From Cupriavidus necator (GTDB lineage: Bacteria > Pseudomonadota > Gammaproteobacteria > Burkholderiales > Burkholderiaceae), in the NCBI RefSeq assembly GCF_016127575.1, contig NZ_CP066019.1:390001-422000 (forward strand): DNA of 32,000 bases, in the 5' to 3' direction. A program made the translations under genes and the position numbers. The notes under the pieces were generated by a model. That model saw nothing but the letters and a program-made list of their open reading frames with translations, ran no database searches and was not told the origin of the DNA. This document shows positions 18,269 through 29,921 of the stretch, in pieces; within the stretch, counting starts at the first letter, position 1; every line of letters begins with the position of its first letter.

Positions 18269-18449
18269 TCGACGTTCCCAACACCGCGCGGCTCGCTGGA
18301 TTTCATTGCACGCTCTCGGCCTGAGATCACCAGGAAACGCACGAACTGCAAGTGCACGGGCCCGACAGTCCAGGACTTGGTCGGCGGACAGATATAGACG
18401 GCTTGCGCGATGCCTCTTGGGCTGCATTGGGCGAACTCGGCCGCTCCTG

Positions 18450-19017
18450 AGGTATGGGTGATGGCTGCTTGTGGCCGGGAAGCGATTTCCGTCGGCCGGA
18501 GGCGGTCGGCCCTTACTGGGCCAAGGCGCGGCGATAAGGCACGATAACGGGGCCTTATCGCGTCGTCGGTTGCGGCAAGTCCAAGCCCGGGCTGGTCGTC
18601 GCACATTGTTCACCGGAGGAGAGCGGCCAAGCGTGCGGCCTTGGTCAAGGCATAGCGCCGTGGCACTTCTGGCACGGCTGCTCCTATCCGGCGTTGCGTT
18701 GATTGGAAAGCCCTGGGGTGGAATTTGGTCGCTGAGGCCGGCCCGTCAAACTCGAGGTGTCATCGTCTGCCTGGACAGCAACCGGCACTTCATCGTGAAC
18801 TACGGTGACCGCTGTCGGCATGGGGAGCACATTGCAAGGTTTCGTCGAGTCGGCCGTCAACCAAGTGGTGAGCAGGCGCTTCGTCAAACGACAGCAGATG
18901 GCTTGGCGGCCTCGGCGCGCGCACAACCTGCCATAAATCCGGATGGCCGTGCTCAATGACCAGTTGCGATCGCACGTTGAGCGACGGTATCCATCTATTG
19001 CCGCAGAAGAACAACAT
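18450..19017 (+). mobile_element. degraded 3' portion of a DDE transposase gene (ISKra4/ISNCY-like by recollection); at least two frameshifts and one in-frame stop
   Basis: Family-like strings appear in three different forward frames:
- GDGCLWPGSDFRRPEAVGPYW (about 18455)
- PWHFWHG (about 18658)
- HFIVNYGDRCRHGE (about 18787)
- STLQGFVESAVNQVVSRRFVKRQQMAWRPRRAHNLP*IRMAVLNDQLRSHVERRYP (18826-18990, TAA at 18934-18936)
No N-terminal half is present upstream. Confidence 0.5.
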
Positions 19018-19104
19018 CGCCTTGCCGCTTGATTAGCCCCGATTTTGCGTCTCCGTATCGGACCGGCGAGGCTGACGCTTCGTGGGGAGGCTAGGAGCGA
19101 TCCC

Positions 19105-19149
19105 ATGCTCACAACCGTGATAATGTTCGTCGCCACCACCCTCCTGTGA
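19105..19149 (+). CDS. possible 14-codon hydrophobic upstream ORF (MLTTVIMFVATTLL) coupled to the VOC gene
   Basis: ATG 19105 lies 7 nt after AGGAG (19093-19097). Its TGA (19147-19149) overlaps GTG 19146 of the next ORF as GTGA. Confidence 0.25.
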   Translation: MLTTVIMFVATTLL

Positions 19150-19556
19150 GACGCAAAGTGATTTCGCACATTTTTCTTGGCGTTAACGACTTCGATCGTG
19201 CTTTTGAGTTTTATTCGGCGTTGATGCATGAACTAGGACACAACCTCAAATTCTGCGAGCGCGACACGCCATGGGCAGGGTGGATGGCAACGGACGCACC
19301 GCGGCCGCTGTTCCTTATTGGCAAGCCATATGACGGCAATGCTGCGCGAGGTGGGAATGGTCAAATGGTGGCATTGCTTGCGCGTGATCGGCAGACCGTT
19401 GACCAGGCATACGCCCGCGCGCTCGCAAACGGAGCAAATTGCGAAGGCGCTCCTGGCCTAAGAGCCCAGTATCACCCTCACTACTACGGCGCATACTTCC
19501 GAGATGCTGATGGAAACAAGCTTTGCGTATGCTGCCATCACCCGGTGTCGGTTTAG
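19146..19556 (+). CDS. VOC-family protein (glyoxalase / bleomycin-resistance / dioxygenase fold)
   Basis: Track ORF of 136 aa containing ISHIFLGVNDFDRAFEFYSALM and ...YYGAYFRDADGNKLCV. The start is GTG 19146 or GTG 19158. No SD of its own is visible. Confidence 0.8.
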   Translation: MRRKVISHIFLGVNDFDRAFEFYSALMHELGHNLKFCERDTPWAGWMATDAPRPLFLIGKPYDGNAARGGNGQMVALLARDRQTVDQAYARALANGANCEGAPGLRAQYHPHYYGAYFRDADGNKLCVCCHHPVSV

Positions 19557-19801
19557 CGTTATCGATTTAGCACTGACCTGCCTCTGCGCCTGTCGACGCG
19601 GCCCTCACCTCAGATGGCCGTCGACGCGCTGGCGCGGGCAACGGAAGCCGGTCGATGCCATGCAGCGCAGGAAGTCGACAAACGCGGCTGGACTGAGATA
19701 GTTGTCATCCGAGCCATCCGTCCGGTCAAGGAAACGATGGGCGCCTGCGATCCCAGCAGGACACTCGATTATGGCGCACGACCCTCGCCCCGTTTGTGAC
19801 G

Positions 19802-20710
19802 CTACTGGTGGGATGCTGAGGCGATCTTTTGAGAAAAAAACTTCACGAAAGCCTCGACCTTCCTCGGGTGATTGCGAGGTTTCGGAAACACCGCATATAT
19901 TCCCGGCTGCTCAGATGCACCAATCTCGTCGTACTCTTCCAGCAGCCGAATCAAGCCGCCGCTGAGCAAGTCCTGCTCGACAAGCCAGTCGGGCTGCCGG
20001 GTGATTCCCTTGCCTGCTTTGGCCCATGCAATCAGCGCATGCGATTCGTTACTCGAAAATGCCCCATCTACCGGAATTGCCATAGTTGTGCCGTCCACCT
20101 GGTACTGCCAAGATGAGGAATGCGGTTCATGGCGGTAAATCAGGCACTGATGTCGTGCCAGTTCGGTCGGATGCCGGGGGGCGCCATGAGATGCCAGATA
20201 GCCGGGACTGGCGCATGTTACGCGGCGGTACGTGCTGAGGCATCGAGCCGAGAAAGCGGAATCCCCGGGTCGCCCCGCCCGCAGGGCGAGATCGAAGCCG
20301 TTGGCCACAAGGTCGACAATCCGGTCGCTAACCTGGAGATCGAGGCTGATTCTCGGGAAGCGTGCCGTGAACTCATCCAGATGCGGGTACACAAAGGTCA
20401 GCGCCACGCCCAGCGGTAATGTGACGCGTAACTCACCCCTTGGTTCCGACGCAAGGCGCCGGACCGCATCTTCCGCTTCATGCGACTGTTCAATGATGCG
20501 CTTCGCGTGTTTGTACCAGAGCCTGCCTGCCTCGGTCACGGCGATGCGACGCGTCGTCCGGTCGAGCAGGCGCGCGCCAAGCCGTTTTTCTATTCGGGCT
20601 AGTGCGCCGGTCACCGTCGCAGGCGCGAGTCCGAGGACCCGGGCTGCCTGCGCCATGCTCCCCGAGTCCACGATCTGGCAGAACACCTGCATGCTGAACA
20701 GCTGATCCAT
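19802..20710 (-). CDS. LysR-family transcriptional regulator (complete)
   Basis: Track ORF of 302 aa. The N-terminal HTH is MQVFCQIVDSGSMAQAARVLGLAPATVTGALARIEKRLGARLLDRTTRRIAVTEAG, followed by a LysR substrate-binding domain. Confidence 0.9.
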   Translation of the reverse strand: MDQLFSMQVFCQIVDSGSMAQAARVLGLAPATVTGALARIEKRLGARLLDRTTRRIAVTEAGRLWYKHAKRIIEQSHEAEDAVRRLASEPRGELRVTLPLGVALTFVYPHLDEFTARFPRISLDLQVSDRIVDLVANGFDLALRAGRPGDSAFSARCLSTYRRVTCASPGYLASHGAPRHPTELARHQCLIYRHEPHSSSWQYQVDGTTMAIPVDGAFSSNESHALIAWAKAGKGITRQPDWLVEQDLLSGGLIRLLEEYDEIGASEQPGIYAVFPKPRNHPRKVEAFVKFFSQKIASASHQ

Positions 20711-20728
20711 CGTCGATTATTCGTAAAT

Positions 20729-20747
20729 CATGAAGAATCCATTCATG
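20729..20747. promoter_or_regulatory. inverted repeat CATGAA-N7-TTCATG in the LysR / GFA divergent region (candidate LysR site)
   Basis: Read directly. It lies 19 nt upstream of the LysR start codon and about 80 nt upstream of the GFA gene. Confidence 0.35.
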
Positions 20748-20829
20748 GGCGGCTACTTTATCAAAATTTCCGCACACCCTACGATCTTCTCCAATTTAGC
20801 ATTCATCGCAACACTTCCTGGAGAAGCCC

Positions 20830-21225
20830 ATGACCCAGCACGGCAGTTGTCTCTGCGGACACGTCAAATACCGAATCCACGGCCCGCTAACCGACGTCCT
20901 GAATTGTCATTGTTCGATGTGCCGAAAGCTTCATGCCTCGGCCTTCCGCACGAGAGCCAAGGTGGCGATTAGGGATTGGGAATGGGTATCCGGGCAGAAC
21001 ACCGTCAAGTTTTACGAGTCCTCGCCTGGCGAGCACAAGGGATTTTGCAGCGAATGTGGCTCAAGCATATTGACGCGATTTGACAGCAATCCCGATGTAA
21101 TCGGATTCCCGCTCGGTACGCTTGATAGCGATCCCGGCGTGAAGGCCGAGCGCCATGTTTTTGTCGGCAGCAAGGCGTCGTGGTATGACATCACCGATAC
21201 GCTTCTGCAGCACAAGGAATACTGA
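20830..21225 (+). CDS. GFA-family (CENP-V / glutathione-dependent formaldehyde-activating enzyme-like) zinc protein
   Basis: Track ORF of 131 aa with Cys clusters GSCLCGHVKY, CHCSMCRK and FCSECGS. Confidence 0.85.
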   Translation: MTQHGSCLCGHVKYRIHGPLTDVLNCHCSMCRKLHASAFRTRAKVAIRDWEWVSGQNTVKFYESSPGEHKGFCSECGSSILTRFDSNPDVIGFPLGTLDSDPGVKAERHVFVGSKASWYDITDTLLQHKEY

Positions 21226-21368
21226 GGCCAGTCGGAACGCAGTACACATACAAGGGAAATATCACGAATAAGAAGCTTAAAATAAAGACTAGTGGAAAGC
21301 CACAACAATGCCAGTCTCATCGGCTAGCCCTCAGCTCACCACTTTGCTATGTCTTTTGACAGGTGGTC

Positions 21369-22352
21369 TTACTCAACCCAAGTTCGCGCGCCCACGTCCT
21401 GGAATTGGCGTCGATATGCCAAAGGTGTCGAACCCACGATCTGCCGAAACCGCCTGGCAAAGTTATTTGGTTCACCGAATCCCGTGCTTTGCCCGATTTC
21501 TGCGGCCGAGGCGGATGTGAAAGCCAGCAAAGTCTTTGCCCGCTCGATCCGCCTTTCAGTCACGATCTCCAGAAAGGTCTTTCCGGTTTCACTCTTCAGC
21601 AGGTGGGCCAGGTGTGTTGCTGATACATGACTGGCCTGCGCAGCGTCGCCCAAGGTCAGTTCCCGCGAAAGGTTTTGGGTGATATACCGAATGCAGCGCA
21701 GCACGGACTGCTTGTACGACTGCAGCAACATCCCGTTGCTCTCGCAAAGACGAATCTTGTCACCGTGGCGTCGCCACACCATGCCAATCAGGTTTAGCAA
21801 GTGGCTGCGGATCAGCAAGTTGCTGGCCGTATCGTCACTGGGCGATTGCTGGGATTCTTGCGCCATGCGCTCGCATAGCTCCTGAAGGTACTCGGTGTCC
21901 AGTTCATCGAACTGAAAATCCAGACAATGCTGAAAGCGGAAGGGACCAAGCTCTGGCGCGCGCGCGAGCGGCACTTCCGACAACTCGAAGACATCAAGGT
22001 TAAGCGACGGTAGCAGATACTCTTTGCTGATGTTGATTACGTGGAACTTGCCGTCCGCTACGTTCGGAATGTAGTGAACCAGAAACGGCAGGACGAAGCT
22101 TACGGTGCCGGGGCGAATGGGCCGCTGCTGGCCCCCAATGTAGTGAGTGGTTTCGCCTAGTGTGTTGACGTAAATCTGGAAGTACTCGTGACGGTGCGGC
22201 ACCGGGTTCGGCAGACAGTTGCTCTGATCGTGGATGCCAAAGTAGGCGCTCTGCGCCCGGGCCGCCATGGTGTAGTTCCGGATGACAGCACCCTTCTCGC
22301 CGTCGTGGTGGAGGGGCAGCAGCGGGTCGTTCGAGGGCTTCGCTCGGTGCAT
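21369..22352 (-). CDS. AraC-family transcriptional regulator with N-terminal cupin-like domain
   Basis: The cupin part is HRHEYFQIYVNTLGETTHYIGG. The C-terminal HTH is TLGDAAQASHVSATHLAHLLKSETGKTFLEIVTERRIERAKTLL...IGQSTGFGEPNNFARRFRQIVGSTPLAYRR. The start is uncertain: ATG 22352 is chosen, the track uses TTG 22400, and the later MAARAQ Met is also possible. Confidence 0.78.
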   Translation of the reverse strand: MHRAKPSNDPLLPLHHDGEKGAVIRNYTMAARAQSAYFGIHDQSNCLPNPVPHRHEYFQIYVNTLGETTHYIGGQQRPIRPGTVSFVLPFLVHYIPNVADGKFHVINISKEYLLPSLNLDVFELSEVPLARAPELGPFRFQHCLDFQFDELDTEYLQELCERMAQESQQSPSDDTASNLLIRSHLLNLIGMVWRRHGDKIRLCESNGMLLQSYKQSVLRCIRYITQNLSRELTLGDAAQASHVSATHLAHLLKSETGKTFLEIVTERRIERAKTLLAFTSASAAEIGQSTGFGEPNNFARRFRQIVGSTPLAYRRQFQDVGARTWVE

Positions 22353-22479
22353 GGAAACGTGGGGGGCAAAGGATCGTAAGGATTGCGCATCTTTTCGCAA
22401 GCCTGTGCGTTGAGGCCGAACGACCGCGTCTCTAAACTCTAGCCACTCCGTTCAATAATCTTACACAGAGACAATCCTT

Positions 22480-23193
22480 ATGCCTAGAGCCAGTGCGGAC
22501 AGCGTCGTGCAATCGACCAAGGTCCTGAGCGTTACCCCCGCCTTCATTGATATCGTTGGCAGCGATCAACGCTTCCCGGTGCGGCGCGTCTATTGCGTGG
22601 GGCGCAACTACCTTGCCCATATCCGGGAAATGGGGGAGGGTGACGAACGCGACCCCCCATTCTTCTTCCAGAAGCCGGCCGATGCCATTGTGACCGATGG
22701 CCGCGTCCCCTATCCGACGTTTACTGATGACTTTCAGTTCGAGTTTGAACTCGTCGTTGCCATCGGCCGTGAAGCGACGGAAGTGCCGCCGGACACTGCA
22801 CTGGATCATGTCTTTGGCTATGCCGCAGGGCTTGACATGACGCGGCGGGACCGCCAACGCGAATGCAACAAGCGCGGCCTGCCGTGGGAGCTGGGCAAGT
22901 CATTCGACCATTCGGCGCCATGCGGTCCCATCCATCCCGTGGCGAAGGTCGGCCATCTCCGTTCGGGCGCACTGAGCCTGGCGGTAAACGGTGACGTACG
23001 ACAGCACTCGGTCCTGGAGAAGATGATCTGGAACGTCCATGAAATCGTCAGCGAGCTGTCCAGGCAGTATCGCCTGCTTCCTGGCGACCTGATCTTTACC
23101 GGCACGCCAGAAGGCGTTGGTCCGGTGCAGCGCGGTGACAGGTTGATCGGCCGTATTGAAGGACTCGACCCCTTGCAGGTCGAGATCGTCTGA
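22480..23193 (+). CDS. fumarylacetoacetate hydrolase (FAH) family protein
   Basis: Track ORF of 237 aa containing FPVRRVYCVGRNYLAHIREMGEGDERDPPFFFQKPADAIV, ...ELVVAIG... and ...PGDLIFTGTPEGVGPV. Confidence 0.85.
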   Translation: MPRASADSVVQSTKVLSVTPAFIDIVGSDQRFPVRRVYCVGRNYLAHIREMGEGDERDPPFFFQKPADAIVTDGRVPYPTFTDDFQFEFELVVAIGREATEVPPDTALDHVFGYAAGLDMTRRDRQRECNKRGLPWELGKSFDHSAPCGPIHPVAKVGHLRSGALSLAVNGDVRQHSVLEKMIWNVHEIVSELSRQYRLLPGDLIFTGTPEGVGPVQRGDRLIGRIEGLDPLQVEIV

Positions 23194-23217
23194 GTCCCGG
23201 GTCAAAGGAAACACGCC

Positions 23218-24096
23218 ATGAAACCACTCGAACGCATCTCATTTTCGGCCATTTCCGAGCGTCCCGCCCTGACGCTGCCGGCTGGCAAGCGCCTGGCCGT
23301 TTGGGTCATCGTCAATGTTGAGGAATGGGATATCAACGAGACCATGCCGCGCACGGTTCTCACGCCTCCGGCGGGCGGTTCGCCGATGCCAGACATCCCG
23401 AACTGGGCCTGGCACGAGTACGGCAACCGCGTCGGCTTTTGGCGCATGCTGGACGTCATTGACGAGCTTGGGATCAATGCAACGCTCGCCATCAACGGCG
23501 CCGCCATCGATGCCTACGAGCCTATCGCCAAGGCGGCGAAGGCGCGTAACTGGGAGTTCATCGGCCATGGCTTTGGGCAGCGCAACATGCAGAAGGTGCC
23601 CGACGAAGCGGTCGACATCGCAAAGACCACCGAGGCCATTCGCGCCTACACCGGGAAGCGCCCCCGCGGCTGGCTCGGACCGGGGCTCACCGAGACCTGG
23701 AATACACCCGACATCCTCGCGGAGCAAGGCTACGAGTACGTGTGCGACTGGGTGCTCGACGATCAGCCCGTGGAACTGAGGACGCGAGATGGCGGCTGTA
23801 TCGTGAACGTGCCCTACACACAGGAGTGCAACGATGTAGCGATGATGCTGATCCAGCATCACAAGGCCAGCGAGTATCGCGACCGCGCTATCGACCAGTT
23901 CGAGCAACTCTACGCCGATGCGAAGGACTCAGCCCGCGTGATGGCGCTGGTCGTGCATCCGTACATCATGGGCGCGCCACACCGCCTGCGCTATTTCCGG
24001 GAGGCGCTGGCGCACATTCGGGCACACGACGACGTTGCCTTCCTGACGGGAGAACAGATCCTCGATTGGTATAAGGCAGCGCGCGCGGCCTCATAG
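23218..24096 (+). CDS. polysaccharide-deacetylase (CE4) family protein, PuuE-allantoinase-like
   Basis: Track ORF of 292 aa with AAGGAAA upstream. The sequence includes VWVIVNVEEWD, ...NWAWHEYGNRVGFWR..., ...FIGHGF... and ...VHPYIMGAPHRLRYF. The family call is from recollection. Confidence 0.75.
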   Translation: MKPLERISFSAISERPALTLPAGKRLAVWVIVNVEEWDINETMPRTVLTPPAGGSPMPDIPNWAWHEYGNRVGFWRMLDVIDELGINATLAINGAAIDAYEPIAKAAKARNWEFIGHGFGQRNMQKVPDEAVDIAKTTEAIRAYTGKRPRGWLGPGLTETWNTPDILAEQGYEYVCDWVLDDQPVELRTRDGGCIVNVPYTQECNDVAMMLIQHHKASEYRDRAIDQFEQLYADAKDSARVMALVVHPYIMGAPHRLRYFREALAHIRAHDDVAFLTGEQILDWYKAARAAS

Positions 24097-24158
24097 CCGG
24101 ATCCGTACATCGCCAGAAACTCGAACAAATCTCTCGCTTGACGAGAAGGAGACAACAC

Positions 24159-25409
24159 GTGAATTCCTCGACTTCGGCCGGCCCGCTGACCGGAGACGTG
24201 CGCAGCGATGCGCCCGTCACGGCATTGGAGATCGGCATGTTTCTTGTGCTGCTTGCCTCCTATGCGCTCAACGCGATGGACCGGCAGATCTTTCCGCTGA
24301 TCGCCGCAGATGTGCGAAGGGAGTTTGGGTTCGGCCTCGCCGACACCGGCCTGCTTTCGACCATCTTTACGCTCGGCATGGCACTAGCGGGGGTGCCGAC
24401 AGGCTACCTGCTGGCGCGGTGGTCGCGCAAGGCCGTGCTCCAGATTGGCATCGCGATCTTCTCGCTTGGCACGCTGTTGACTGCCTACTCGAGCGGCTTT
24501 GCCGACATGATCCTCTACCGCGCCGCTACTGGCATCGGCGAAGCGATGCAGCTGACTGTGGTGATCGCCATCGCGGCGAGCTATTTCGCTCGCTTCCGCG
24601 CGACGGCCGTTGGGGCCATCAACTTCTCCTTCGGTGTCGGAGCCATCGTGGGACCGCTGCTCGGTGGGCACCTGATCGGCATTGAGCGAAACTGGCGCTT
24701 GCCGCTGGTGGTGTTCGGCCTGACCGGATTTGTCGCAATGGCGCTGATCGCGGCTACCGTGAGCAAGCGCATGACCGAAAAGGCCAGCGCGATCGCCACG
24801 CACATCGACACGCGCGGTGCAACCACGATGTGGAACCGCAACACGGCTCTCTTGACTGTGATGAGCATCATTGGCGGGTTGTGCATCTATGGCTACCTCG
24901 GCATGTACCCCACGTTCCTGCGCGAGCATCTGCACTACACGCCGTCGGACACTGGTCGCGTCATGAGTATCTTCGGGTGCGGCGTGTTCGCCTCCATCTT
25001 TGGCGGCTGGCTTGGCGACCGCTTCCACCCCAAGCTTGTGTTGTCGCTGAGCTTTGCGGGGACCGGGCTGCTCGGCTTCCTTCTGTTCTCGGGGCCGACG
25101 GGCATGTTGGTCCAATCGGTGCTGTCATTCGTGTGGGGGCTGGTGGTAAGTGGCGTGCTGTACGTGAACCTGGCCGGCTACCATATCAAGTCCGTGCGCT
25201 CTTCGCTCACGAATCGGGCCACCGGTGTCTTTGTCACGACGCTCTACGGCGCGGGCGCTTTCGCGGGCTACATCATCGGCGGCATCGCGGCGCGCTTTGG
25301 CTGGAGCACCGCCGGCTTTGCGCAGATCACCTTGCTATCGGTCTTCGGAATAGTACTCACCGTGCTACTGCGGACCGACCGGATGTCCTTGCCTGTGCGT
25401 AAGCCATGA
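24159..25409 (+). CDS. MFS transporter
   Basis: In-frame GTG 24159 lies 6 nt after GAAGGAGA (24145-24152). It has multiple hydrophobic spans plus LNAMDRQIFPL... and RAATGIGEA motifs. The track start is TTG 24138. Confidence 0.85.
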   Translation: MNSSTSAGPLTGDVRSDAPVTALEIGMFLVLLASYALNAMDRQIFPLIAADVRREFGFGLADTGLLSTIFTLGMALAGVPTGYLLARWSRKAVLQIGIAIFSLGTLLTAYSSGFADMILYRAATGIGEAMQLTVVIAIAASYFARFRATAVGAINFSFGVGAIVGPLLGGHLIGIERNWRLPLVVFGLTGFVAMALIAATVSKRMTEKASAIATHIDTRGATTMWNRNTALLTVMSIIGGLCIYGYLGMYPTFLREHLHYTPSDTGRVMSIFGCGVFASIFGGWLGDRFHPKLVLSLSFAGTGLLGFLLFSGPTGMLVQSVLSFVWGLVVSGVLYVNLAGYHIKSVRSSLTNRATGVFVTTLYGAGAFAGYIIGGIAARFGWSTAGFAQITLLSVFGIVLTVLLRTDRMSLPVRKP

Positions 25410-26161
25410 CGCCGGCCGAATGGGTGCTGCTCGGTGGCGCTGCGACTTTCGCCGGGACGCTGAATGCGGTGGCAGGCGGCGGTAGTTTCCTGACACTGCC
25501 GGCCTTGGCGATGGTCGGCGTGCCGCCGGTATCTGCCAACGCCACCGGGACCGCCGCGCTCCTGCCTGGCTATATGGCGGGTGCCTGGGCACAGCGCAAG
25601 GATCTGTCGGGGCCGATGGCACCCTCGCTTCTTCGGCTAAGCGTGCTGTCGGTGCTGGGTGGTGCGGCAGGCGCCACGTTGCTGCTGTCGACCTCGAACA
25701 GCGACTTCGGGCGCATTGTGCCATGGTTGCTGTTGGCCGCGACCCTTCTCTTTGCCTGTGGGCCAAGGCTTCTGCGCAAAGGAGCCGTCGCATCGCAGTC
25801 CCCCAGTGAATGGATCACGGACATCTGCATCGCTGCGGTCGCGATCTACGGTGGCTATTTCAACGACGGTCTCGGCATCTTGCTGCTGGCGGTTCTCGCT
25901 GCGCTCGGGCACACCGACATGAGCCGGATGAACGGCATCAAGAACTTCGTCTCCGTGATCCTGACGCTGATAGCTGTCGTCATTTATGCGGCCAGCGGCG
26001 CCATCGCCTGGACGCATGCACTATGGATGGCGATCGGCGCCACAGCCGGCGGGTATTTCGGCGGCGTCACGGCTCGGCGACTTAAACCGGCCCTGGTGCG
26101 TGGCTTCGTCGTCCTGACAGGGCTGGCAATGACCGCAGCATTCTTTCTCGAGACGAGTTGA
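25406..26161 (+). CDS. TauE/SafE (DUF81) family sulfite/organosulfonate-exporter-like membrane protein
   Basis: Track ORF of 251 aa containing GTLNAVAGGGSFLTLPALAMVGVPPVSANATG. Its ATG overlaps the MFS stop as ATGA (25406-25409), which implies co-translation. Confidence 0.85.
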   Translation: MTPAEWVLLGGAATFAGTLNAVAGGGSFLTLPALAMVGVPPVSANATGTAALLPGYMAGAWAQRKDLSGPMAPSLLRLSVLSVLGGAAGATLLLSTSNSDFGRIVPWLLLAATLLFACGPRLLRKGAVASQSPSEWITDICIAAVAIYGGYFNDGLGILLLAVLAALGHTDMSRMNGIKNFVSVILTLIAVVIYAASGAIAWTHALWMAIGATAGGYFGGVTARRLKPALVRGFVVLTGLAMTAAFFLETS

Positions 26162-26204
26162 CCACAACCGTCTTCCTGCAATCCAAATCGCATCGGAAAG
26201 GAAC

Positions 26205-27668
26205 ATGAGAACAACCAGAAGAGAATTCGCCAAGGTCGCCGGCGCAATGATGGTCGCGGCAACCGGGATCCCCTCGCTTGTCGCTTCGGCATCGGCTTCG
26301 GCGGGAGGCGGCATGCCATCCGCGGCGTCCGGAGCCCGTCGAGGCACCTACCTGATCAAGAACGGCATGGTCATCACGGTCGACCGGAAGAATGGCGTCA
26401 TGCCACGCGCCGACATCTTGATTCGAAACGGCGTGATCGAGAAGATCGGTCGGGGTCTGAGCACGGCCGGCGCGCAGACGATCGATGCCGCGGACATGAT
26501 CGTCATGCCCGGCTTCGTCAACTCTCACTACCATATGTGGAGCGCGATCGGACGCAGCTTCACCGCGCGGAACGGCGGCTTCTCCTACTACCCGGCCAAG
26601 AGCGCCACATCCGCCTTGTACACGCCGGAGGACTTCTACAACAGCGTGCTCCTTGCGTGCGCCGAACTAGCGAACGGCGGGACCACTACCGTGCACAACT
26701 GGTCGCATAACACCCGCTCCGCGGCCCATGCGGATGCCGAACTTCGCGCGCACCAGCACTCTCTGCTGAGGGCCCGTTACTCGTACGGCCACATTGACAA
26801 GCTCCCGGTAGACGAGGTGAACAGGTTCGGCGACCTTGCGCGCGTCCAGCGCAAATGGTTCGGTGCAAACTCCCCATTCGAAGGTTTGGTGCACCTGGGA
26901 CTGAATCTGCGTGGTCCGCAACAGAGCACCGATGCTGTCTTTCACGAGGAAATGAAGTTCGTCAAGAAGAGTGGGCTTCCCGTAGCGATCCACGCGCCGC
27001 AGGAGTCGCCCAACAATGTCGATGCTGTCGACTACGAGAGGCGCGGTTACCTCGGCCCCGATTTTATGATCGCGCATTACGTCCCGGCGACGACCGAGGA
27101 CTTGATGGCGATGGCGCGCACGAAGACACCGCTCTCCTTTGCGACACATTCCGAACTCCGGCTCAGCAGCACGGGCGATGCCCGGGCTGCGCTGTTCGCG
27201 ATGCGTGCCGCGGGGCTGACTATCTCATTGTCGAGCGACGCGACGTCCATTGCCCCACCGGACATGTTCGAAATGATGCGTTTCACCTGGAACCTCGGGG
27301 TGCCCTGGGTTGGCACCCCCAGCGAGCGGGCAAGGGCGGTCAGCGTGCAAGAGGTGATCGAGATGGCGACGATCAATGGAGCCATCGCGATGGGGATCGG
27401 CGACATCACTGGATCGATCACTGAAGGCAAGCGCGCAGACATCATTCTGGTGCGGGCCAAGGATCTGAACATCTGGCCAATAGGCAATATCGAAACGGCG
27501 ATTGTGCAGAGCGGCAGCGCCAGCAACGTCGACACGGTGTTAGTCGATGGCCGAATAATAAAGAGAAGCGGTCGCTTGCTAGCCTACAACGTGGACAGCA
27601 TTGTTCGCGGTGCTCAGCAGTCCTCCAATCGGATTCTCAATGCGGCTGATGAGATGATGAAGTTATGA
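26205..27668 (+). CDS. metal-dependent amidohydrolase-superfamily protein with twin-arginine (Tat) signal peptide
   Basis: The N-terminus MRTTRREFAKVAGAMMVAATGIPSLVASASASA matches the S/T-R-R-x-F-x-K Tat consensus. The sequence includes ADILIRNGVIEKIG, ...IVMPGFVNSHYHMW (HxH metal site) and ...GKRADIILV. Confidence 0.85.
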   Translation: MRTTRREFAKVAGAMMVAATGIPSLVASASASAGGGMPSAASGARRGTYLIKNGMVITVDRKNGVMPRADILIRNGVIEKIGRGLSTAGAQTIDAADMIVMPGFVNSHYHMWSAIGRSFTARNGGFSYYPAKSATSALYTPEDFYNSVLLACAELANGGTTTVHNWSHNTRSAAHADAELRAHQHSLLRARYSYGHIDKLPVDEVNRFGDLARVQRKWFGANSPFEGLVHLGLNLRGPQQSTDAVFHEEMKFVKKSGLPVAIHAPQESPNNVDAVDYERRGYLGPDFMIAHYVPATTEDLMAMARTKTPLSFATHSELRLSSTGDARAALFAMRAAGLTISLSSDATSIAPPDMFEMMRFTWNLGVPWVGTPSERARAVSVQEVIEMATINGAIAMGIGDITGSITEGKRADIILVRAKDLNIWPIGNIETAIVQSGSASNVDTVLVDGRIIKRSGRLLAYNVDSIVRGAQQSSNRILNAADEMMKL

Positions 27669-27810
27669 GTAGTCTAAAGAGTGAGTGGGACGAACGCCGC
27701 CTTCTGTTCGAGATGAAATGCACACCGAACTCCCTCCGTGGACCAGGCAGCGGGAGTTATTTGTCCGCCCAAGGGGCGACCACTCGATTTAGTCGAGACG
27801 AACGCGAGCA

Positions 27811-27834
27811 CGTTCTTCGCATATGCGTTCTTCG
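27811..27834. repeat. direct repeat CGTTCTTCG x2 flanking the palindrome CGCATATGCG, followed by TTTT (possible terminator or regulatory element after the amidohydrolase gene)
   Basis: The repeat copies are at 27811-27819 and 27826-27834. The palindrome is at 27818-27827. TTTT follows at 27835-27838. Confidence 0.3.
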
Positions 27835-27903
27835 TTTTGTACGGTCCGGCAAGGCAACGCCGCGTTGTCCGGACCTTCATCCTTTACTTCCCAGGCCCTG
27901 CCC

Positions 27904-28458
27904 ATGCGCACAGCACGCTTGCTATCATGTAGTTCTATCGCGGCCCTTGCCACCCTCGTTGTGCCGGCGCTCTGCATCGCCAATGCCAACGCCGCCGAGC
28001 AGATCGTCAGGCATCGCAACCCGGCGCACATGACCGAACCGTGGGCGCGTGAGTTCGCGGAGGTGATCGAGATTCCCGCCAATGCGCAGCTGCTTGTGCT
28101 CAGCGGCGTGGGGCCCACGGTGGCGAATGCCTCGGCGCCGCCCGATACCGCGGCCTCCTATGGCGACACCGCAACCCAGACTCGCAGCGTGCTTGGCCAG
28201 ATCGAGCGCATCCTCCAGGATCGCGGCTATCGCATGGGCGACATCGTCTCCATGCAGGCGTTGATTGTGGCAGACCCGGCCACGGGCGAGCCAGACTTCA
28301 CCGGCTTCTCGAGCGCCTATAAGCAATACTTCGGAACAGACAAGCAGCCCAACGTGCCGGTGCGCACGCGAGCCGAAGTCTTGCGGCTGGTGCCGCCGGG
28401 ATGGCTAGTCGAAGTCACCGTCATGGCGAGCCGTGTGCCGTCGCGGCGGCCACAGTAG
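27904..28458 (+). CDS. RidA/YjgF/L-PSP-family protein with N-terminal Sec-type signal peptide
   Basis: From ATG 27904 the signal-like N-terminus is MRTARLLSCSSIAALATLVVPALCIANANA/AEQ. The RidA-type body follows: LLVLSGVGP...DTATQTRSVLGQIERILQDRGYRMGDIVSMQALI...RTRAEVLRLVPPGWLVEVTVMA. No clear SD is present. Confidence 0.78.
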   Translation: MRTARLLSCSSIAALATLVVPALCIANANAAEQIVRHRNPAHMTEPWAREFAEVIEIPANAQLLVLSGVGPTVANASAPPDTAASYGDTATQTRSVLGQIERILQDRGYRMGDIVSMQALIVADPATGEPDFTGFSSAYKQYFGTDKQPNVPVRTRAEVLRLVPPGWLVEVTVMASRVPSRRPQ

Positions 28459-28712
28459 AAGACATAGGCTAACTAGCGGTGTGCCGCAACCGGGAGGGCG
28501 GAGCTCGCGTGGCCGGGCGCAGGTAGTGGGACAGCGCACCTAACTCTCGCTGGAACATGACTGAGTGCGCCGAGCCGCCGCCTGCGAGGCGGGTTGCCCA
28601 GGGATCGGCTTGGCGGCCCGACGAGCTGTCGCGTGTCGTGGCCCTCATGTGTTGCAGTGGTGCTCCCCGGTATTTGCTCTCGATTATGATCTGATTTATA
28701 CAATAAGGCCAA

Positions 28713-29096
28713 ATGAAAGTAAGAGCATTATGTATCGCTTCGCTAGGAGTTGTGGTGCTAACTCAAACATCACTATCCTGTGCGCAAAATTTTAATGGGA
28801 AAAATCTCTTTACGCAGAGATGTGCCATATGCCATGGAGCAGACCTCAAAGGGACAGGGCCATTGGCCAAGAAAAGCATTCCTCCCACACCTGATCTGAC
28901 AACCGCCGCTTTCAAAAGACGACTCAATGATTATCCTGGTGTTATTGTTTCATCGGTGATACTTCGTCCAAATGGAGACTTGATTCCAAGAACTTTGCAA
29001 GAGAATGGTGTGAGGCTGGCGCCGCACTCTTGGACTGTTCAAGATTTTCGAGATTTAAATAAATACATGAGTGGTGTGATTTCAAATAGCCGGTGA
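28713..29096 (+). CDS. small secreted c-type cytochrome (single CxxCH), AT-rich
   Basis: Track ORF of 127 aa. The signal peptide is MKVRALCIASLGVVVLTQTSLSCA. The heme motif is CAICHG. Hand-counted GC is 26/60 (28741-28800) and 24/60 (28921-28980), against 43/60 in the core region. Confidence 0.72.
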   Translation: MKVRALCIASLGVVVLTQTSLSCAQNFNGKNLFTQRCAICHGADLKGTGPLAKKSIPPTPDLTTAAFKRRLNDYPGVIVSSVILRPNGDLIPRTLQENGVRLAPHSWTVQDFRDLNKYMSGVISNSR

Positions 29097-29254
29097 TCTT
29101 GAGGCAAGAAGACGATACGGAAGTTCGGTGATCGCGGCCACTTTTCCTTGTGTCCGGCCGTTAGCCAGACGACATTAGTCTGGCGTGAAGGGCGGCCAGA
29201 TTCTAAGTGACTGCTCTGGATTTGAACCGTTGTCTGCGCCGGTTCGTAGGCAGT

Positions 29255-29335
29255 TCAACTATGGGGCTTGCGCATCCGCATGTCCTCGATCATGCGCTGG
29301 CGCGGCGGGCTGATGGTAGGCGTCGGGATTGACAT
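29255..29335 (-). pseudogene. 26-codon stub of a tyrosine recombinase/integrase gene (N-terminus only)
   Basis: The reverse complement reads AGGAG-N7-ATG, then MSIPTPTISPPRQRMIEDMRMRKPHS*. The RQRMIEDM(R/Q)(M/L)R string is the usual N-terminus of the phage-integrase N-terminal SAM-like domain integrases common in Burkholderiales (recollection). Homology ends after about 23 codons. Confidence 0.5.
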
Positions 29336-29350
29336 GGCTGTGCTCCTGTC

Positions 29351-29379
29351 GAGGATCGAGGCAAATTGCCTCGATCCTC
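29351..29379. repeat. perfect 29-bp palindrome (14-bp arms, 1-nt centre)
   Basis: GAGGATCGAGGCAA-A-TTGCCTCGATCCTC, checked base by base. It lies 16 nt upstream of the integrase stub start. Confidence 0.9.
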
Positions 29380-29921
29380 AACATAGGGAACAGCACAGGC
29401 GGTTCAGTCACTTTGTGCAATGGCCGGAGGGCTACCGCGCGAGCGGTTTAGTCCACTGGCCGGACCCGGACGACCGCGCAGGTTGGTGGATGACTGTGAT
29501 CGTAGACCGTGCCTCCTGCCCTACCTTCGACACGACGTTGCTGTCTCAGGACAGGTTCACTGCTTCACGGGCCAACTTCAACGAAGAGACCAGGCGGTGC
29601 ACAGAACGCACGCCCGTGCCGACTTTTGAAAACATGCTGGCGGTACGACCTTATGCCACGCCTTAACATGGCCAGTCTTGCAGTGCTCAGCCATCTCACT
29701 TGCGTCGATCCCTTTCCATCACCGGGTCCTGGGCAGCATGCAGCGGGAATCGGCCTGGCCCGTCGACGCCGCACCCCGGCGAGGAGCCGGCGCGTCGTGT
29801 CGCGCTGGCGTGGCTGACCTCGGCCGATCCGGCAAATGCGGTGCGCCTCGCATCTGATGAAGAGCGCGGCGCGCTGCTATCTGCCTTTAGTACAGACTCA
29901 AGTAGCCCGGCGGGGTTACCA

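What the first reader, a model, noticed from the sequence alone, without database searches (positions are those of the whole stretch)
22480..28458. Catabolic cluster ending in a Tat-exported amidohydrolase followed by a signal-peptide-bearing RidA: a predicted periplasmic hydrolase + imine-deaminase pair
Seen, all on one strand:
- FAH-family hydrolase
- CE4/PuuE-like deacetylase
- MFS transporter
- TauE/SafE-family membrane protein, whose start overlaps the MFS stop as ATGA (25406-25409)
- a 487-aa amidohydrolase whose N-terminus MRTTRREFAKVAG...ASASASA fits the twin-arginine consensus
- after 235 nt, a RidA-family protein with a Sec-like leader (MRTARLLSCSSIAALATLVVPALCIANANA/AE)
A divergent cupin-AraC regulator sits upstream.

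Established knowledge:
- RidA/YjgF proteins are normally cytoplasmic and quench reactive enamine/imine intermediates.
- Amidohydrolase-superfamily members of this HxH type include many deaminases and ring-opening amidases.
- Tat export implies folding and metal loading before export.

Inference:
- Both proteins being exported suggests an extracytoplasmic deamination or ring hydrolysis whose unstable imine product is handled by a dedicated periplasmic RidA.
- The products would then be taken up by MFS/TauE and finished by the deacetylase-like and FAH-like enzymes.
- I do not know of a described pathway with this layout.
Basis: partly seen in the sequence, partly recalled or inferred. Interest (0 to 1): 0.6.

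Follow-up and report, generated by a model that had tools for sequence, protein, structure and literature searches.

The report
Exported amidohydrolase with an add-on exported Rid
A Cupriavidus catabolic gene cluster does end in a Tat-exported amidohydrolase followed by a signal-peptide-bearing Rid imine deaminase. However, the Rid gene is a separate cassette added in one sub-lineage, so a dedicated periplasmic enzyme pair is possible but not shown.

Summary
Observation confirmed. All eight genes, the ATGA overlap and both leaders are present at the stated coordinates.

**Export signals**
- The amidohydrolase (AH) leader has a canonical twin-arginine motif, shared by 105 of 121 homologs. The genome encodes TatC.
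- The Rid leader is a Sec/SPase-I signal that ends just before the conserved mature N-terminus. Similar leaders occur in 87 of 121 homologs. This is the only one of the genome's 16 Rid genes with a leader.

**Interpretation only partly supported**
- The conserved unit is araC | FAH-CE4-MFS-TauE-AH.
- Rid lies on a 0.7-kb cassette (27753-28469) with its own conserved 5' leader.
- Four of six other AH-bearing Cupriavidus species have Rid after the AH. Two of them, plus a Comamonas, have the full cluster and no Rid.
- Three other Cupriavidus species carry the cassette without the AH, behind a LysR gene next to an ABC importer and a CE4 paralog.
- AH orthologs in other phyla have no Rid of this type beside them.
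- The AH keeps all metal ligands, but an invariant Gln replaces the catalytic Glu of related deaminases.

**In favour of a link**
- Rid-family genes sit within 3 kb of AH-family genes in about five other lineages.
- One is an actinomycete cluster, NCS1-Rid-TauE-AH-FAH-CE4, where both proteins lack leaders.

Substrate unknown. Novelty modest.

The parts
21369..22400 (-). AraC-family regulator with a cupin-type ligand domain, divergent from the operon
   Evidence: Pfam HTH_18, HTH_AraC and AraC_binding. Conserved with the operon in Cupriavidus and Comamonas loci.
22480..23193 (+). FAH-family hydrolase, fumarylpyruvate/acylpyruvate-hydrolase-like. No signal peptide.
   Evidence: PF01557, E 9e-54. 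Best solved relatives are 6j5y (E 3e-80) and 4maq 'putative fumarylpyruvate hydrolase'.
23218..24096 (+). CE4 (PuuE-like) hydrolase, cytoplasmic. The best-conserved marker of the pathway.
   Evidence: PF01522. TIGR03212 at 106 bits, below the 424.6 cut-off. Best PDB hit is PuuE 3cl6. 70-74% identical copies lie next to FAH in actinomycete and other proteobacterial loci.
24138..25409 (+). MFS transporter, most like organic-anion/aromatic-acid symporters. Proposed importer.
   Evidence: PF07690, E 3e-47. Best NCBIfam hits are TIGR00895/TIGR00893, all below cut-off.
25406..26161 (+). TauE/SafE-family anion permease. Its start overlaps the MFS stop (ATGA).
   Evidence: PF01925, E 2e-36. Overlap read. 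TauE-AH adjacency is kept in Comamonas and two actinomycete loci but is missing in the Cupriavidus UYPR2.512 locus L035.
26205..27668 (+). Tat-exported amidohydrolase of the COG0402 / subtype-III fold. Residues 1-~35 are the Tat signal (TRREFAK ... ASA|G). Proposed metal ligands are H108, H110, H263, H291 and D345. Q266 sits at the catalytic-Glu position.
   Evidence: Family scans. Invariant columns. Alignment to 4f0r. Tat motif in 105 of 121 homologs. AlphaFold model pLDDT 77.6 with residues 1-55 disordered. Foldseek best hits 4f0s, AtzA, TrzN and Vcz at about 20% identity. Good SD (GGAAAGGAA) 2 nt before the ATG.
27669..27752 (+). Spacer between the AH stop and the Rid cassette. Shared only by the Rid-bearing Cupriavidus genomes, i.e. 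one junction.
   Evidence: blastn and alignment. In AH-only genomes homology stops at 27664-27670.
27753..27903 (+). Conserved 5' leader of the Rid cassette. It travels with the gene in both genomic contexts and contains a stable hairpin at 27843-27875.
   Evidence: blastn boundaries, alignment A3, fold of -24.1 kcal/mol with z -2.8. No terminator-like site between AH and Rid.
27904..28458 (+). Sec-exported Rid-family protein, Rid3-like. Signal is residues 1-30 (cleavage ANA|AE). Catalytic Arg is R154 and Glu is E170.
   Evidence: PF01042. Best solved relatives are the Rid3 proteins PSPTO3006 (E 2e-26) and PFL1385, both shown to be imine deaminases in PMC5619798. Alignment A2. The only one of 16 Rid paralogs with a leader.
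28713..29096 (+). Small exported cytochrome c (one CxxCH), 43.8% GC. Neighbour only, not a conserved part.
   Evidence: Pfam Cytochrom_C, GC content. Present only in G000, G452 and one metagenome contig.

Best explanation
The region holds two units of different history.

(1) A horizontally mobile six-gene catabolic unit, araC | FAH-CE4-MFS-TauE-AH, for an unidentified nitrogen-containing compound, probably heterocyclic or an amide. The AH is folded and metal-loaded in the cytoplasm, exported by Tat, and carries out a first hydrolytic step in the periplasm. Because it has HxxQ instead of HxxE, this step need not be a nucleobase-type deamination. The acidic product is then taken up by the MFS symporter and finished in the cytoplasm by the PuuE-like CE4 hydrolase and the acylpyruvate-type FAH hydrolase.

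(2) A self-contained 0.7-kb cassette encoding a Sec-exported, catalytically competent Rid3-type imine/enamine deaminase. It was added once to the 3' end of that unit, at the edge of a decaying low-GC island, in one Cupriavidus sub-lineage.

Rid is best read as a general periplasmic imine/enamine hydrolase. It may speed a step of this pathway but is an optional accessory, not an obligate or dedicated partner of the AH.

Shown: gene identities, both leaders and their conservation, the cassette boundaries, and the presence/absence pattern. Inferred: the order of the reactions, the substrate class, and any Rid-AH coupling.
For: Gene identities and export:
- Families assigned.
- Tat motif in 105 of 121 AH homologs. 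Leader-less forms start at the mature domain. TatC is present.
- Sec leader conserved with codon-wise indels and an AxA site before the invariant mature N-terminus. The ATG is invariant.

Presence and absence:
- The six-gene unit is intact with no Rid-family gene within 8-10 kb in G445, G439 and Comamonas.
- Rid directly follows the AH in G452, G015, G449 and G458.

The cassette as a separate unit:
- Cassette 27753-28469 is shared at 82-85% DNA identity with loci that lack the AH.
- In those loci it follows a LysR gene that is divergent from an ABC importer, a CE4 paralog and an AspDH-like operon. The same arrangement holds around a 62%-identical exported Rid in the metagenome locus L103.
- Rid gene GC is 0.654, against 0.57-0.64 for the cluster and 0.438 for the cytochrome c.

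No partner at a distance:
- About 20 AH orthologs at 51-65% identity in other lineages share no conserved neighbour, and only one of them (L026) has Rid-family genes nearby.

Enzyme chemistry:
- Q266 aligns with the catalytic Glu of 4f0r.
- Rid3 proteins deaminate many imines in vitro (PMC5619798).
Against: - Both proteins go to the same compartment.
- The cassette has been kept after the AH in five species-level genomes.
- In one of them (G458 = UYPR2.512) a deletion removed the cassette's own leader, leaving Rid 100 nt behind the AH. There it is probably read through from the operon.
- No terminator was detected between the two genes.
- Rid-family genes lie within 3 kb of AH-family genes in about 5 other lineages of 79. 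About 1.3 would be expected from 2.2 Rid genes per Mb, giving a rough Poisson P of about 0.01 (my estimate).
- One of those is the same cluster type in an actinomycete, where both AH and Rid are cytoplasmic.
- Rid reactions also run spontaneously, so absence of Rid from some clusters does not disprove a role.
Confidence: 0.6

Rival explanations
1. One reading: a dedicated periplasmic pair. The Tat-exported AH opens or deacylates its substrate to an unstable enamine/imine, much as RutB feeds RutC. The exported Rid hydrolyses this to a keto compound, possibly the 2,4-diketo acid that FAH later cleaves, and MFS/TauE import that product.
For: - Same compartment, and adjacent in 5 Cupriavidus genomes.
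- The leader-deletion variant forces co-transcription.
- Recurrent Rid-family/AH-family neighbourhoods in L058, L073, L089 and L026. Both proteins lack leaders in the three examined closely, L058, L073 and L089.
- The Rid keeps its catalytic Arg and Glu.
- Precedents exist for Rid proteins that are needed in hydrolase-containing catabolic clusters: RutC (PMC8113886, title and abstract) and OngD (PMC9537276).
Against: - A single insertion event with one shared junction.
- Full clusters with a Tat-AH and no Rid in G445, G439 and Comamonas.
- The cassette without the AH in G475, G469 and G438.
- The other exported Rid3-like genes that had usable flanks show no AH beside them.
- The Rids in the other lineages belong to different subfamilies. 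They were missed by tblastn at 1e-5.
Confidence: 0.25
2. The exported Rid serves a periplasmic flavin amine/amino-acid oxidase or dehydrogenase that passes electrons to a c-type cytochrome, as in lao-cccA-ridA. Its position next to the AH would then be incidental.
For: - A Burkholderiales genome has amine oxidase, cytochrome c and an exported Rid in a row (L095).
- The G. diazotrophicus lao-cccA-ridA cluster has a Tat-signal LAAO, and Chlamydomonas has a periplasmic LAAO-Rid complex (PMC5053998).
- Niehaus et al. note that Rid3 genes cluster with FAD amine oxidases (PMC4433059).
- An exported cytochrome c follows Rid in this window.
Against: - No amine-oxidase gene in the window. The best hit anywhere in the genome has E 1e-4.
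- The cytochrome c is AT-rich, is found only in G000, G452 and one contig, and resembles the L095 cytochrome only around the haem motif.
Confidence: 0.08
3. One or both leaders are not functional export signals, through a wrong start or a cytoplasmic retention, so both enzymes act in the cytoplasm.
For: No predictor or experiment was available. Pfam TAT_signal gave no hit. The SD before the Rid ATG is weak (AGG about 10 nt upstream).
Against: - Leaders are conserved in architecture across 105 of 121 AH homologs and 87 of 121 Rid homologs.
- Indels in the Rid leader are codon-wise, and the ATG is invariant.
- Leader-less natural forms start exactly where the predicted mature proteins start.
- The model leaves residues 1-55 of the AH disordered.
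Confidence: 0.04

Closest known systems
Rid3 subfamily imine deaminases PSPTO_3006 and PFL_1385 (PDB 9bka, 9bkc; Hodge-Hanson and Downs 2017, PMC5619798)
   Same: Best solved relatives (E 2e-26 and 6e-24 over the whole mature domain). The catalytic Arg in the P-x-R-T motif and the Glu are both kept. These proteins deaminate 2-aminoacrylate, several imino acids and iminoarginine in vitro.
   Different: In both solved chains the aligned domain begins within the first 16-38 residues, leaving no room for a leader of this length. The window's protein adds a 30-residue Sec leader and about 20 extra mature N-terminal residues (I-V-R-H-R-N-P-A-H ... W-A-R-E-F), conserved in its own clade. Neither PMC5619798 nor PMC4433059 mentions signal peptides or the periplasm.
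lao-cccA-ridA cluster of Gluconacetobacter diazotrophicus, and the periplasmic LAAO-Rid complex of Chlamydomonas (PMC5053998)
   Same: A precedent for a Rid protein working outside the cytoplasm, beside an exported enzyme and a c-type cytochrome. The same layout occurs around a 39%-identical exported Rid in a Burkholderiales genome (L095).
   Different: Here the exported neighbour is a metallo-amidohydrolase, not a flavin oxidase. No oxidase is nearby or clearly present in the genome.
COG0402 / subtype-III amidohydrolases: MTA/SAH/adenosine deaminases (4f0r, 1p1m), AtzA (4v1x), TrzN (3ls9), isocytosine deaminase Vcz (7ww2)
   Same: Same fold (Foldseek probability 1.0, TM 0.68-0.78). HxH, two further His and Asp metal ligands are all conserved.
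   Different: Only about 20% identity. An invariant Gln stands at the HxxE catalytic Glu; E241Q variants of TrzN are among the solved entries. A Tat leader is present. NCBIfam PRK08204 scores 350.5 bits, just below its 391 cut-off. No characterised close relative was found.
RutB/RutC of the E. coli pyrimidine (rut) pathway
   Same: A hydrolase releases an enamine (3-aminoacrylate) that a Rid-family protein deaminates (PMC8113886, abstract).
   Different: RutB belongs to the isochorismatase family and both Rut proteins are cytoplasmic (established knowledge). RutC is a different Rid subfamily: TIGR03610 scores 23.6 bits here against a 169 cut-off.
PuuE allantoinase (3cl6) and fumarylpyruvate hydrolases (6j5y, 4maq)
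   Same: Closest solved relatives of the CE4 and FAH enzymes that form the conserved core of the cluster.
   Different: The CE4 is far below the PuuE equivalog cut-off (106 against 424.6 bits). No gentisate-type or purine-pathway genes accompany them.

Membership tests
Tat (twin-arginine) signal peptide | S/T-R-R-x-F-L-K motif near the N-terminus | tested here: met
   T-R-R-E-F-A-K at residues 3-9. The family consensus is [T/N/S]-[R/K]-R-x-F-[A/T]-[K/R]-[L/F].
Tat (twin-arginine) signal peptide | Uncharged h-region and an AxA cleavage site, followed by the mature domain | tested here: met
   34 uncharged residues after the motif, then ASA|G. Leader-less homologs begin at GxYLIKNG. The model is disordered over residues 1-55.
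Tat (twin-arginine) signal peptide | Recognised by a curated profile or predictor, and Tat machinery present | tested here: inconclusive
   PF10518 gave no hit on the leader. An Atlas cluster of relatives carries PF10518 on 39% of its members. TatC is present in the genome. TatP and SignalP were not available.
Sec / signal peptidase I signal peptide (on Rid) | Positive n-region, hydrophobic h-region, small residues at -3 and -1, no lipobox | tested here: met
   MRTAR, then a 21-residue core (maximum 10-residue Kyte-Doolittle mean 2.44), then A-N-A|A-E. The residues before the single Cys (P-A-L-C) do not fit a lipobox, and the Cys is not conserved.
Rid (YjgF/YER057c/UK114) family, imine-deaminase-competent group (RidA, Rid1-3) | PF01042 domain above cut-off, plus the conserved catalytic Arg and Glu | tested here: met
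   49.3 bits against a 27.3 cut-off. R154 and E170 are invariant in the clade and align to the Arg and Glu of PSPTO3006.
Archetypal RidA subfamily | Scores above the TIGR00004 / PRK11401 cut-offs | tested here: not met
   27.2 bits against 106.25, and 24.8 bits against 222. So this is a Rid-family protein, Rid3-like by its best relatives, and not RidA proper.
Amidohydrolase superfamily, mononuclear subtype III (COG0402) | HxH (strand 1), His (strand 5), His (strand 6) and Asp (strand 8) metal ligands in a TIM barrel | tested here: met
   H108, H110, H263, H291 and D345 are invariant and align to the ligands of 4f0r. The fold is confirmed.
COG0402 nucleobase/nucleoside-type deaminases and triazine hydrolases | Catalytic Glu three residues after the strand-5 His (HxxE) | tested here: not met
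   H263-A-P-Q266: the Gln is invariant in 28 family members and aligns with the Glu of H-I-H-E in 4f0r. It should therefore not be filed as a deaminase or chlorohydrolase.
PuuE allantoinase | Scores above the TIGR03212 equivalog cut-off | tested here: not met
   106.2 bits against 424.6.
Conserved functional gene pair (exported AH + exported Rid) | Neighbourhood kept across independent lineages | tested here: not met
   This Rid type adjoins the AH only in one Cupriavidus sub-lineage. Each gene also occurs without the other in the genus. Rid genes of other subfamilies do adjoin AH-family genes in about 5 lineages.
lao-cccA-ridA type periplasmic oxidase module | Flavin amine/amino-acid oxidase gene adjacent to the Rid | tested here: not met
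   None in the window. The best genome-wide hit has E 1e-4.

The most novel reading that the evidence does not exclude
Sec-exported Rid3-type proteins may form a large, so far undescribed class of periplasmic imine/enamine deaminases. Most of the 120 nearest homologs carry leaders. On this reading, in Cupriavidus one of them has been recruited to a Tat-exported, non-canonical (HxxQ) COG0402 amidohydrolase, and the two together carry out an extracytoplasmic ring-opening or deacylation plus deamination ahead of uptake. The exported Rid also recurs next to importer operons that carry PuuE-like CE4 genes (three distinct contexts), which would fit a role in conditioning unstable nitrogenous substrates before transport.
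Probability: 0.25. Interest if true: 0.65.

Novelty: new variant of a known kind. Interest (0 to 1): 0.42.

Why it matters
Rid proteins are treated as cytoplasmic guardians against reactive enamines and imines. The two key family surveys do not mention export.

Here one of 16 paralogs in a genome is clearly exported, and most of its nearest relatives are too. This points to imine/enamine chemistry in the periplasm, which has hardly been studied in bacteria.

The Tat-exported amidohydrolase family is large in soil metagenomes, has no characterised member, and lacks the catalytic Glu of its deaminase relatives. Current automatic names such as 'cytosine deaminase', 'atrazine chlorohydrolase' and 'MTA/SAH deaminase' are therefore probably wrong.

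Finding the substrate of the conserved CE4-FAH-AH unit would define a new catabolic route. It would also give the first physiological substrate for a Rid3 protein.

Tried and rejected
I took contexts instead from genome contigs, metagenome contigs and the genome search.
- **Conserved neighbours of distant AH orthologs.** I looked around the roughly 20 AH orthologs at 51-65% identity by all-against-all clustering and found none beyond within-genus synteny.
- **A flavin oxidase partner for Rid and the cytochrome c.** None found.
- **Pfam TAT_signal on the leader.** No hit.
- **CE4 orthologs in 400 Actinomycetota genomes.** None beyond the known one. In 400 Pseudomonadota genomes there was one true ortholog, next to FAH and with no AH or Rid.
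- **A tree of the AH proteins**, meant to test a single origin of the Rid-bearing group, was unresolved. The single-event reading rests on the shared DNA junction instead.
- **My greedy ORF picker was unreliable** in high-GC loci, so I used tblastn and jackhmmer coordinates.
- **Literature searches** for a periplasmic bacterial Rid, or for this cluster type, found only the LAAO precedent.
- **Considered and rejected.** A lipoprotein Rid (no lipobox). A later Rid start (it would cut the conserved domain). The upstream ATG at 27823 (not conserved in the aligned loci).

Full report
**1. What is there**

The window is part of a Cupriavidus chromosome-size replicon (G000 contig C2, 390001-422000). 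The nearest named homologs are all from Cupriavidus.

GC falls from about 0.67 to about 0.59 between 19 and 30 kb. This agrees with an earlier scan note that reads 18270-29380 as a decayed island.

On the plus strand lie, in order:
- FAH, 22480-23193.
- A PuuE-like CE4 hydrolase, 23218-24096.
- An MFS transporter, 24138-25409.
- A TauE/SafE permease, 25406-26161. The ATGA overlap was read.
- A 487-residue amidohydrolase (AH), 26205-27668.
- After 235 nt, a 184-residue Rid-family protein, 27904-28458.

A cupin-AraC regulator is divergent upstream. A small exported cytochrome c follows at 28713-29096.

**2. The export signals are real**

AH:
- The leader reads T-R-R-E-F-A-K, then 34 uncharged residues, then ASA|G.
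- Among the window protein and its 120 best homologs, 96 have RR and 9 have KR in the motif [T/N/S]-[R/K]-R-x-F-[A/T]-[K/R]-[L/F], followed by at least 13 uncharged residues.
- The 16 without it mostly begin right at the conserved GxYLIKNG start of the mature enzyme.
- The AlphaFold model leaves residues 1-55 disordered.
- TatC is encoded in the genome.

Rid:
- The leader is MRTAR, then a 21-residue hydrophobic core, then ANA|AE.
- In an alignment of 26 relatives the leaders vary in sequence and in length by whole codons. All end in a small-x-small site directly before an invariant mature N-terminus (I-x-R-H ... W-A-R-E-F). Leader-less relatives from Pseudomonas and Burkholderia start exactly there.
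- The ATG at 27904 is invariant in seven loci, whereas the DNA before it has non-triplet indels.
- The next Met lies inside the conserved domain, so a later 'cytoplasmic' start is not credible.
- Of the 16 Rid-family genes in this genome, only this one has a leader.

No signal predictor was available, and the Pfam TAT_signal profile gave no hit. Export therefore remains a strong inference, not a demonstration.

**3. What the two proteins are**

Rid:
- Its best solved relatives are the two Rid3 proteins PSPTO3006 and PFL1385 (E 2e-26 and 6e-24). These are broad imine deaminases in vitro (PMC5619798).
- The catalytic Arg (R154) and Glu (E170) are invariant in its clade.
- It is far below the cut-offs for archetypal RidA and for RutC.

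AH:
- It has the COG0402 / subtype-III amidohydrolase fold. Foldseek's best hits are MTA/adenosine deaminase homologs, AtzA, TrzN and isocytosine deaminase, all at about 20% identity.
- All five metal ligands are conserved (H108, H110, H263, H291, D345).
- The position of the catalytic Glu of the HxxE motif is an invariant Gln (H-A-P-Q266).
- It just misses the PRK08204 cut-off (350.5 against 391 bits).
- It should not be called a deaminase or chlorohydrolase. Its substrate is unknown.

**4. Is the pair conserved? The decisive test**

Across other lineages:
- I examined 80 AH-family loci from one-genome-per-species contigs.
- The window's Rid type follows the AH only in Cupriavidus.
- The roughly 20 AH orthologs at 51-65% identity (Alphaproteobacteria, Actinomycetota, Pseudomonas) share no conserved neighbour at all.

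Within the genus (77 other species genomes):
- AH orthologs occur in six genomes.
- Four of these (G452, G015, G449 and G458, the last being UYPR2.512) have Rid 100-240 nt downstream of the AH.
- G445 (AH 89% identical) and G439 (AH 82% identical) have the complete araC-FAH-CE4-MFS-TauE-AH unit and no Rid-family gene within 8-10 kb. The same holds for a Comamonas genome.
- Conversely, G475, G469 and G438 carry an 87-89% identical exported Rid but no AH ortholog.

The cassette:
- DNA comparison defines a discrete cassette, window 27753-28469. It comprises the gene plus 150 nt of conserved 5' leader, and it is shared between the two contexts.
- In AH-only genomes homology stops at the AH stop codon.
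- All Rid-bearing clusters share the same 85-nt junction, which implies one insertion event.

The second context:
- There Rid follows a LysR gene that is divergent from an ABC importer, CE4-paralog and AspDH-like operon.
- The same arrangement surrounds a 62%-identical exported Rid in a metagenome locus (L103). It is therefore probably the older home of the cassette.

Other homolog contexts:
- Other contexts of homologs are unrelated to each other. They include an amidase plus a malic-enzyme-like gene, GNAT acetyltransferases, Dus, and an amine oxidase plus cytochrome c.

**5. What still speaks for a link**

- A family-level jackhmmer scan found Rid-family genes within 3 kb of AH-family genes in L058, L073, L089, L026 and, doubtfully, L057.
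- With 2.2 Rid genes per Mb, about 1.3 such cases would be expected in 80 loci. This is my own rough estimate, with a Poisson P of about 0.01.
- L058 reads binding protein - AH - Rid - ABC ATPase. L073 reads Bug binding protein - AH - Rid.
- L089, an actinomycete, reads NCS1 permease - Rid - TauE - AH - FAH - CE4 - GntR. This is the same cluster type, with CE4 70% and FAH 59% identical to the window's.
- In L058, L073 and L089 both AH and Rid lack leaders. The compartments therefore match there as they do in Cupriavidus.
- In UYPR2.512 a deletion has removed the cassette's own leader, leaving Rid 100 nt behind the AH.
- No terminator is seen between the two genes.
- Rid reactions also proceed spontaneously, so clusters that lack Rid do not disprove a helper role.
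- I therefore give the dedicated-pair model about 0.25, and the 'optional accessory or incidental neighbour' reading about 0.6.

**6. The conserved core and a working mechanism**

- CE4 and FAH are the best-conserved genes of the unit. They are 70-74% and about 59% identical across phyla.
- PuuE-like CE4 genes lie within 10 kb of 11 of the 80 AH-family loci.
- FAH is closest to fumarylpyruvate/acylpyruvate hydrolases. The MFS is closest to organic-anion symporters.
- Most likely sequence of events, all inferred: periplasmic hydrolysis by the Tat-AH, uptake of an acidic product by MFS (the role of TauE is unclear), then CE4 deacylation or ring-amide hydrolysis and FAH C-C cleavage in the cytoplasm, all under AraC control.
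- An NCS1 permease in the actinomycete version hints at a nucleobase-, hydantoin- or ureide-like substrate.

**7. Comparison with what is known, and novelty**

- Extracytoplasmic Rid proteins have a precedent beside periplasmic L-amino-acid oxidases: G. diazotrophicus lao-cccA-ridA and the Chlamydomonas complex (PMC5053998). L095 shows that layout in Burkholderiales.
- No oxidase accompanies this Rid. The cytochrome c next to it is AT-rich (0.438 GC) and confined to G000, G452 and one metagenome contig.
- The two family surveys do not mention export. The breadth of leader-bearing Rid3-like proteins therefore appears under-described.
- Overall this is a new variant of known kinds, namely an exported Rid and a Tat-exported non-canonical amidohydrolase. 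It is not a demonstrated new system.

Noticed in passing
window 27753-28469; L125-L127, L131-L133, L097, L098: The Rid gene plus 150 nt of upstream sequence behaves as a discrete cassette with sharp homology boundaries. It occurs in two unrelated Cupriavidus contexts: after the AH, and after a LysR gene.
   Followed up: yes
window 27843-27875: A stable hairpin (-24.1 kcal/mol, z -2.8) sits about 28 nt before the Rid start. It is nearly invariant in both genomic contexts and is followed by a weak U-rich tract. It could be a 5'-UTR element or a leaky terminator.
   Followed up: partly
L035:11474-11572, L119, L123 (Cupriavidus sp. UYPR2.512 / G458): A deletion of the equivalent of window 27728-27875 removes the cassette's leader and hairpin, bringing Rid to 100 nt behind the AH. 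TauE is also missing from this copy of the cluster.
   Followed up: partly
L131:5592-13846; L103:3355-11706: In the second context a LysR gene followed by the exported Rid lies divergent from an operon of ABC ATPase, two permeases, a Peripla_BP_4 binding protein, a CE4 paralog (38% identical to the window's) and an aspartate-dehydrogenase-like gene. The layout is kept between Cupriavidus and a locus whose Rid is 62% identical. L100 is a third context where an exported Rid lies about 6 kb from a PuuE-like CE4.
   Followed up: partly
L095:42-2019 (G190, Burkholderiales): Flavin amine oxidase, cytochrome c and an exported Rid (39% identical) lie in a row. This is the lao-cccA-ridA layout described for G. 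diazotrophicus.
   Followed up: partly
L089:1680-7991 (actinomycete MAG): NCS1 permease - Rid (143 aa, Arg kept) - TauE - AH (34%, no leader) - FAH (59%) - CE4 (70%) - GntR. This is a cytoplasmic version of the same cluster that independently recruited a Rid of another subfamily.
   Followed up: partly
L026:1068-7761 (Acidimicrobiia MAG): Downstream of a 51%-identical AH ortholog are several Rid-domain genes. One is a tandem double-Rid protein whose first domain lacks the catalytic Arg. An Amidohydro_2-like ORF lies among them.
   Followed up: no
P0126-P0132, P0135 (Variovorax, C. basilensis relatives of the AH): In these close relatives the twin arginine is K-R (for example M-K-T-T-K-R-D-F-T-R) rather than R-R. 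This is a natural variant of the Tat motif within one orthologous group.
   Followed up: no
window 28713-29096: The exported single-haem cytochrome c gene has 43.8% GC in a 67% GC replicon and has no redox partner beside it. It is present only in G000, G452 and one metagenome contig.
   Followed up: partly
L134:9243-9611 (G029, C. basilensis-like): A remnant of the Rid cassette (74% identity, residues 30-158 only, leader lost) lies at a deleted version of the second context. It is annotated in public records as a 189-residue 'Rid family hydrolase' with an aberrant N-terminus (P0035).
   Followed up: partly
public names of AH homologs: Members of this HxxQ family are variously auto-named cytosine deaminase, atrazine chlorohydrolase or MTA/SAH deaminase. 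None of these fits a protein that lacks the catalytic Glu.
   Followed up: partly
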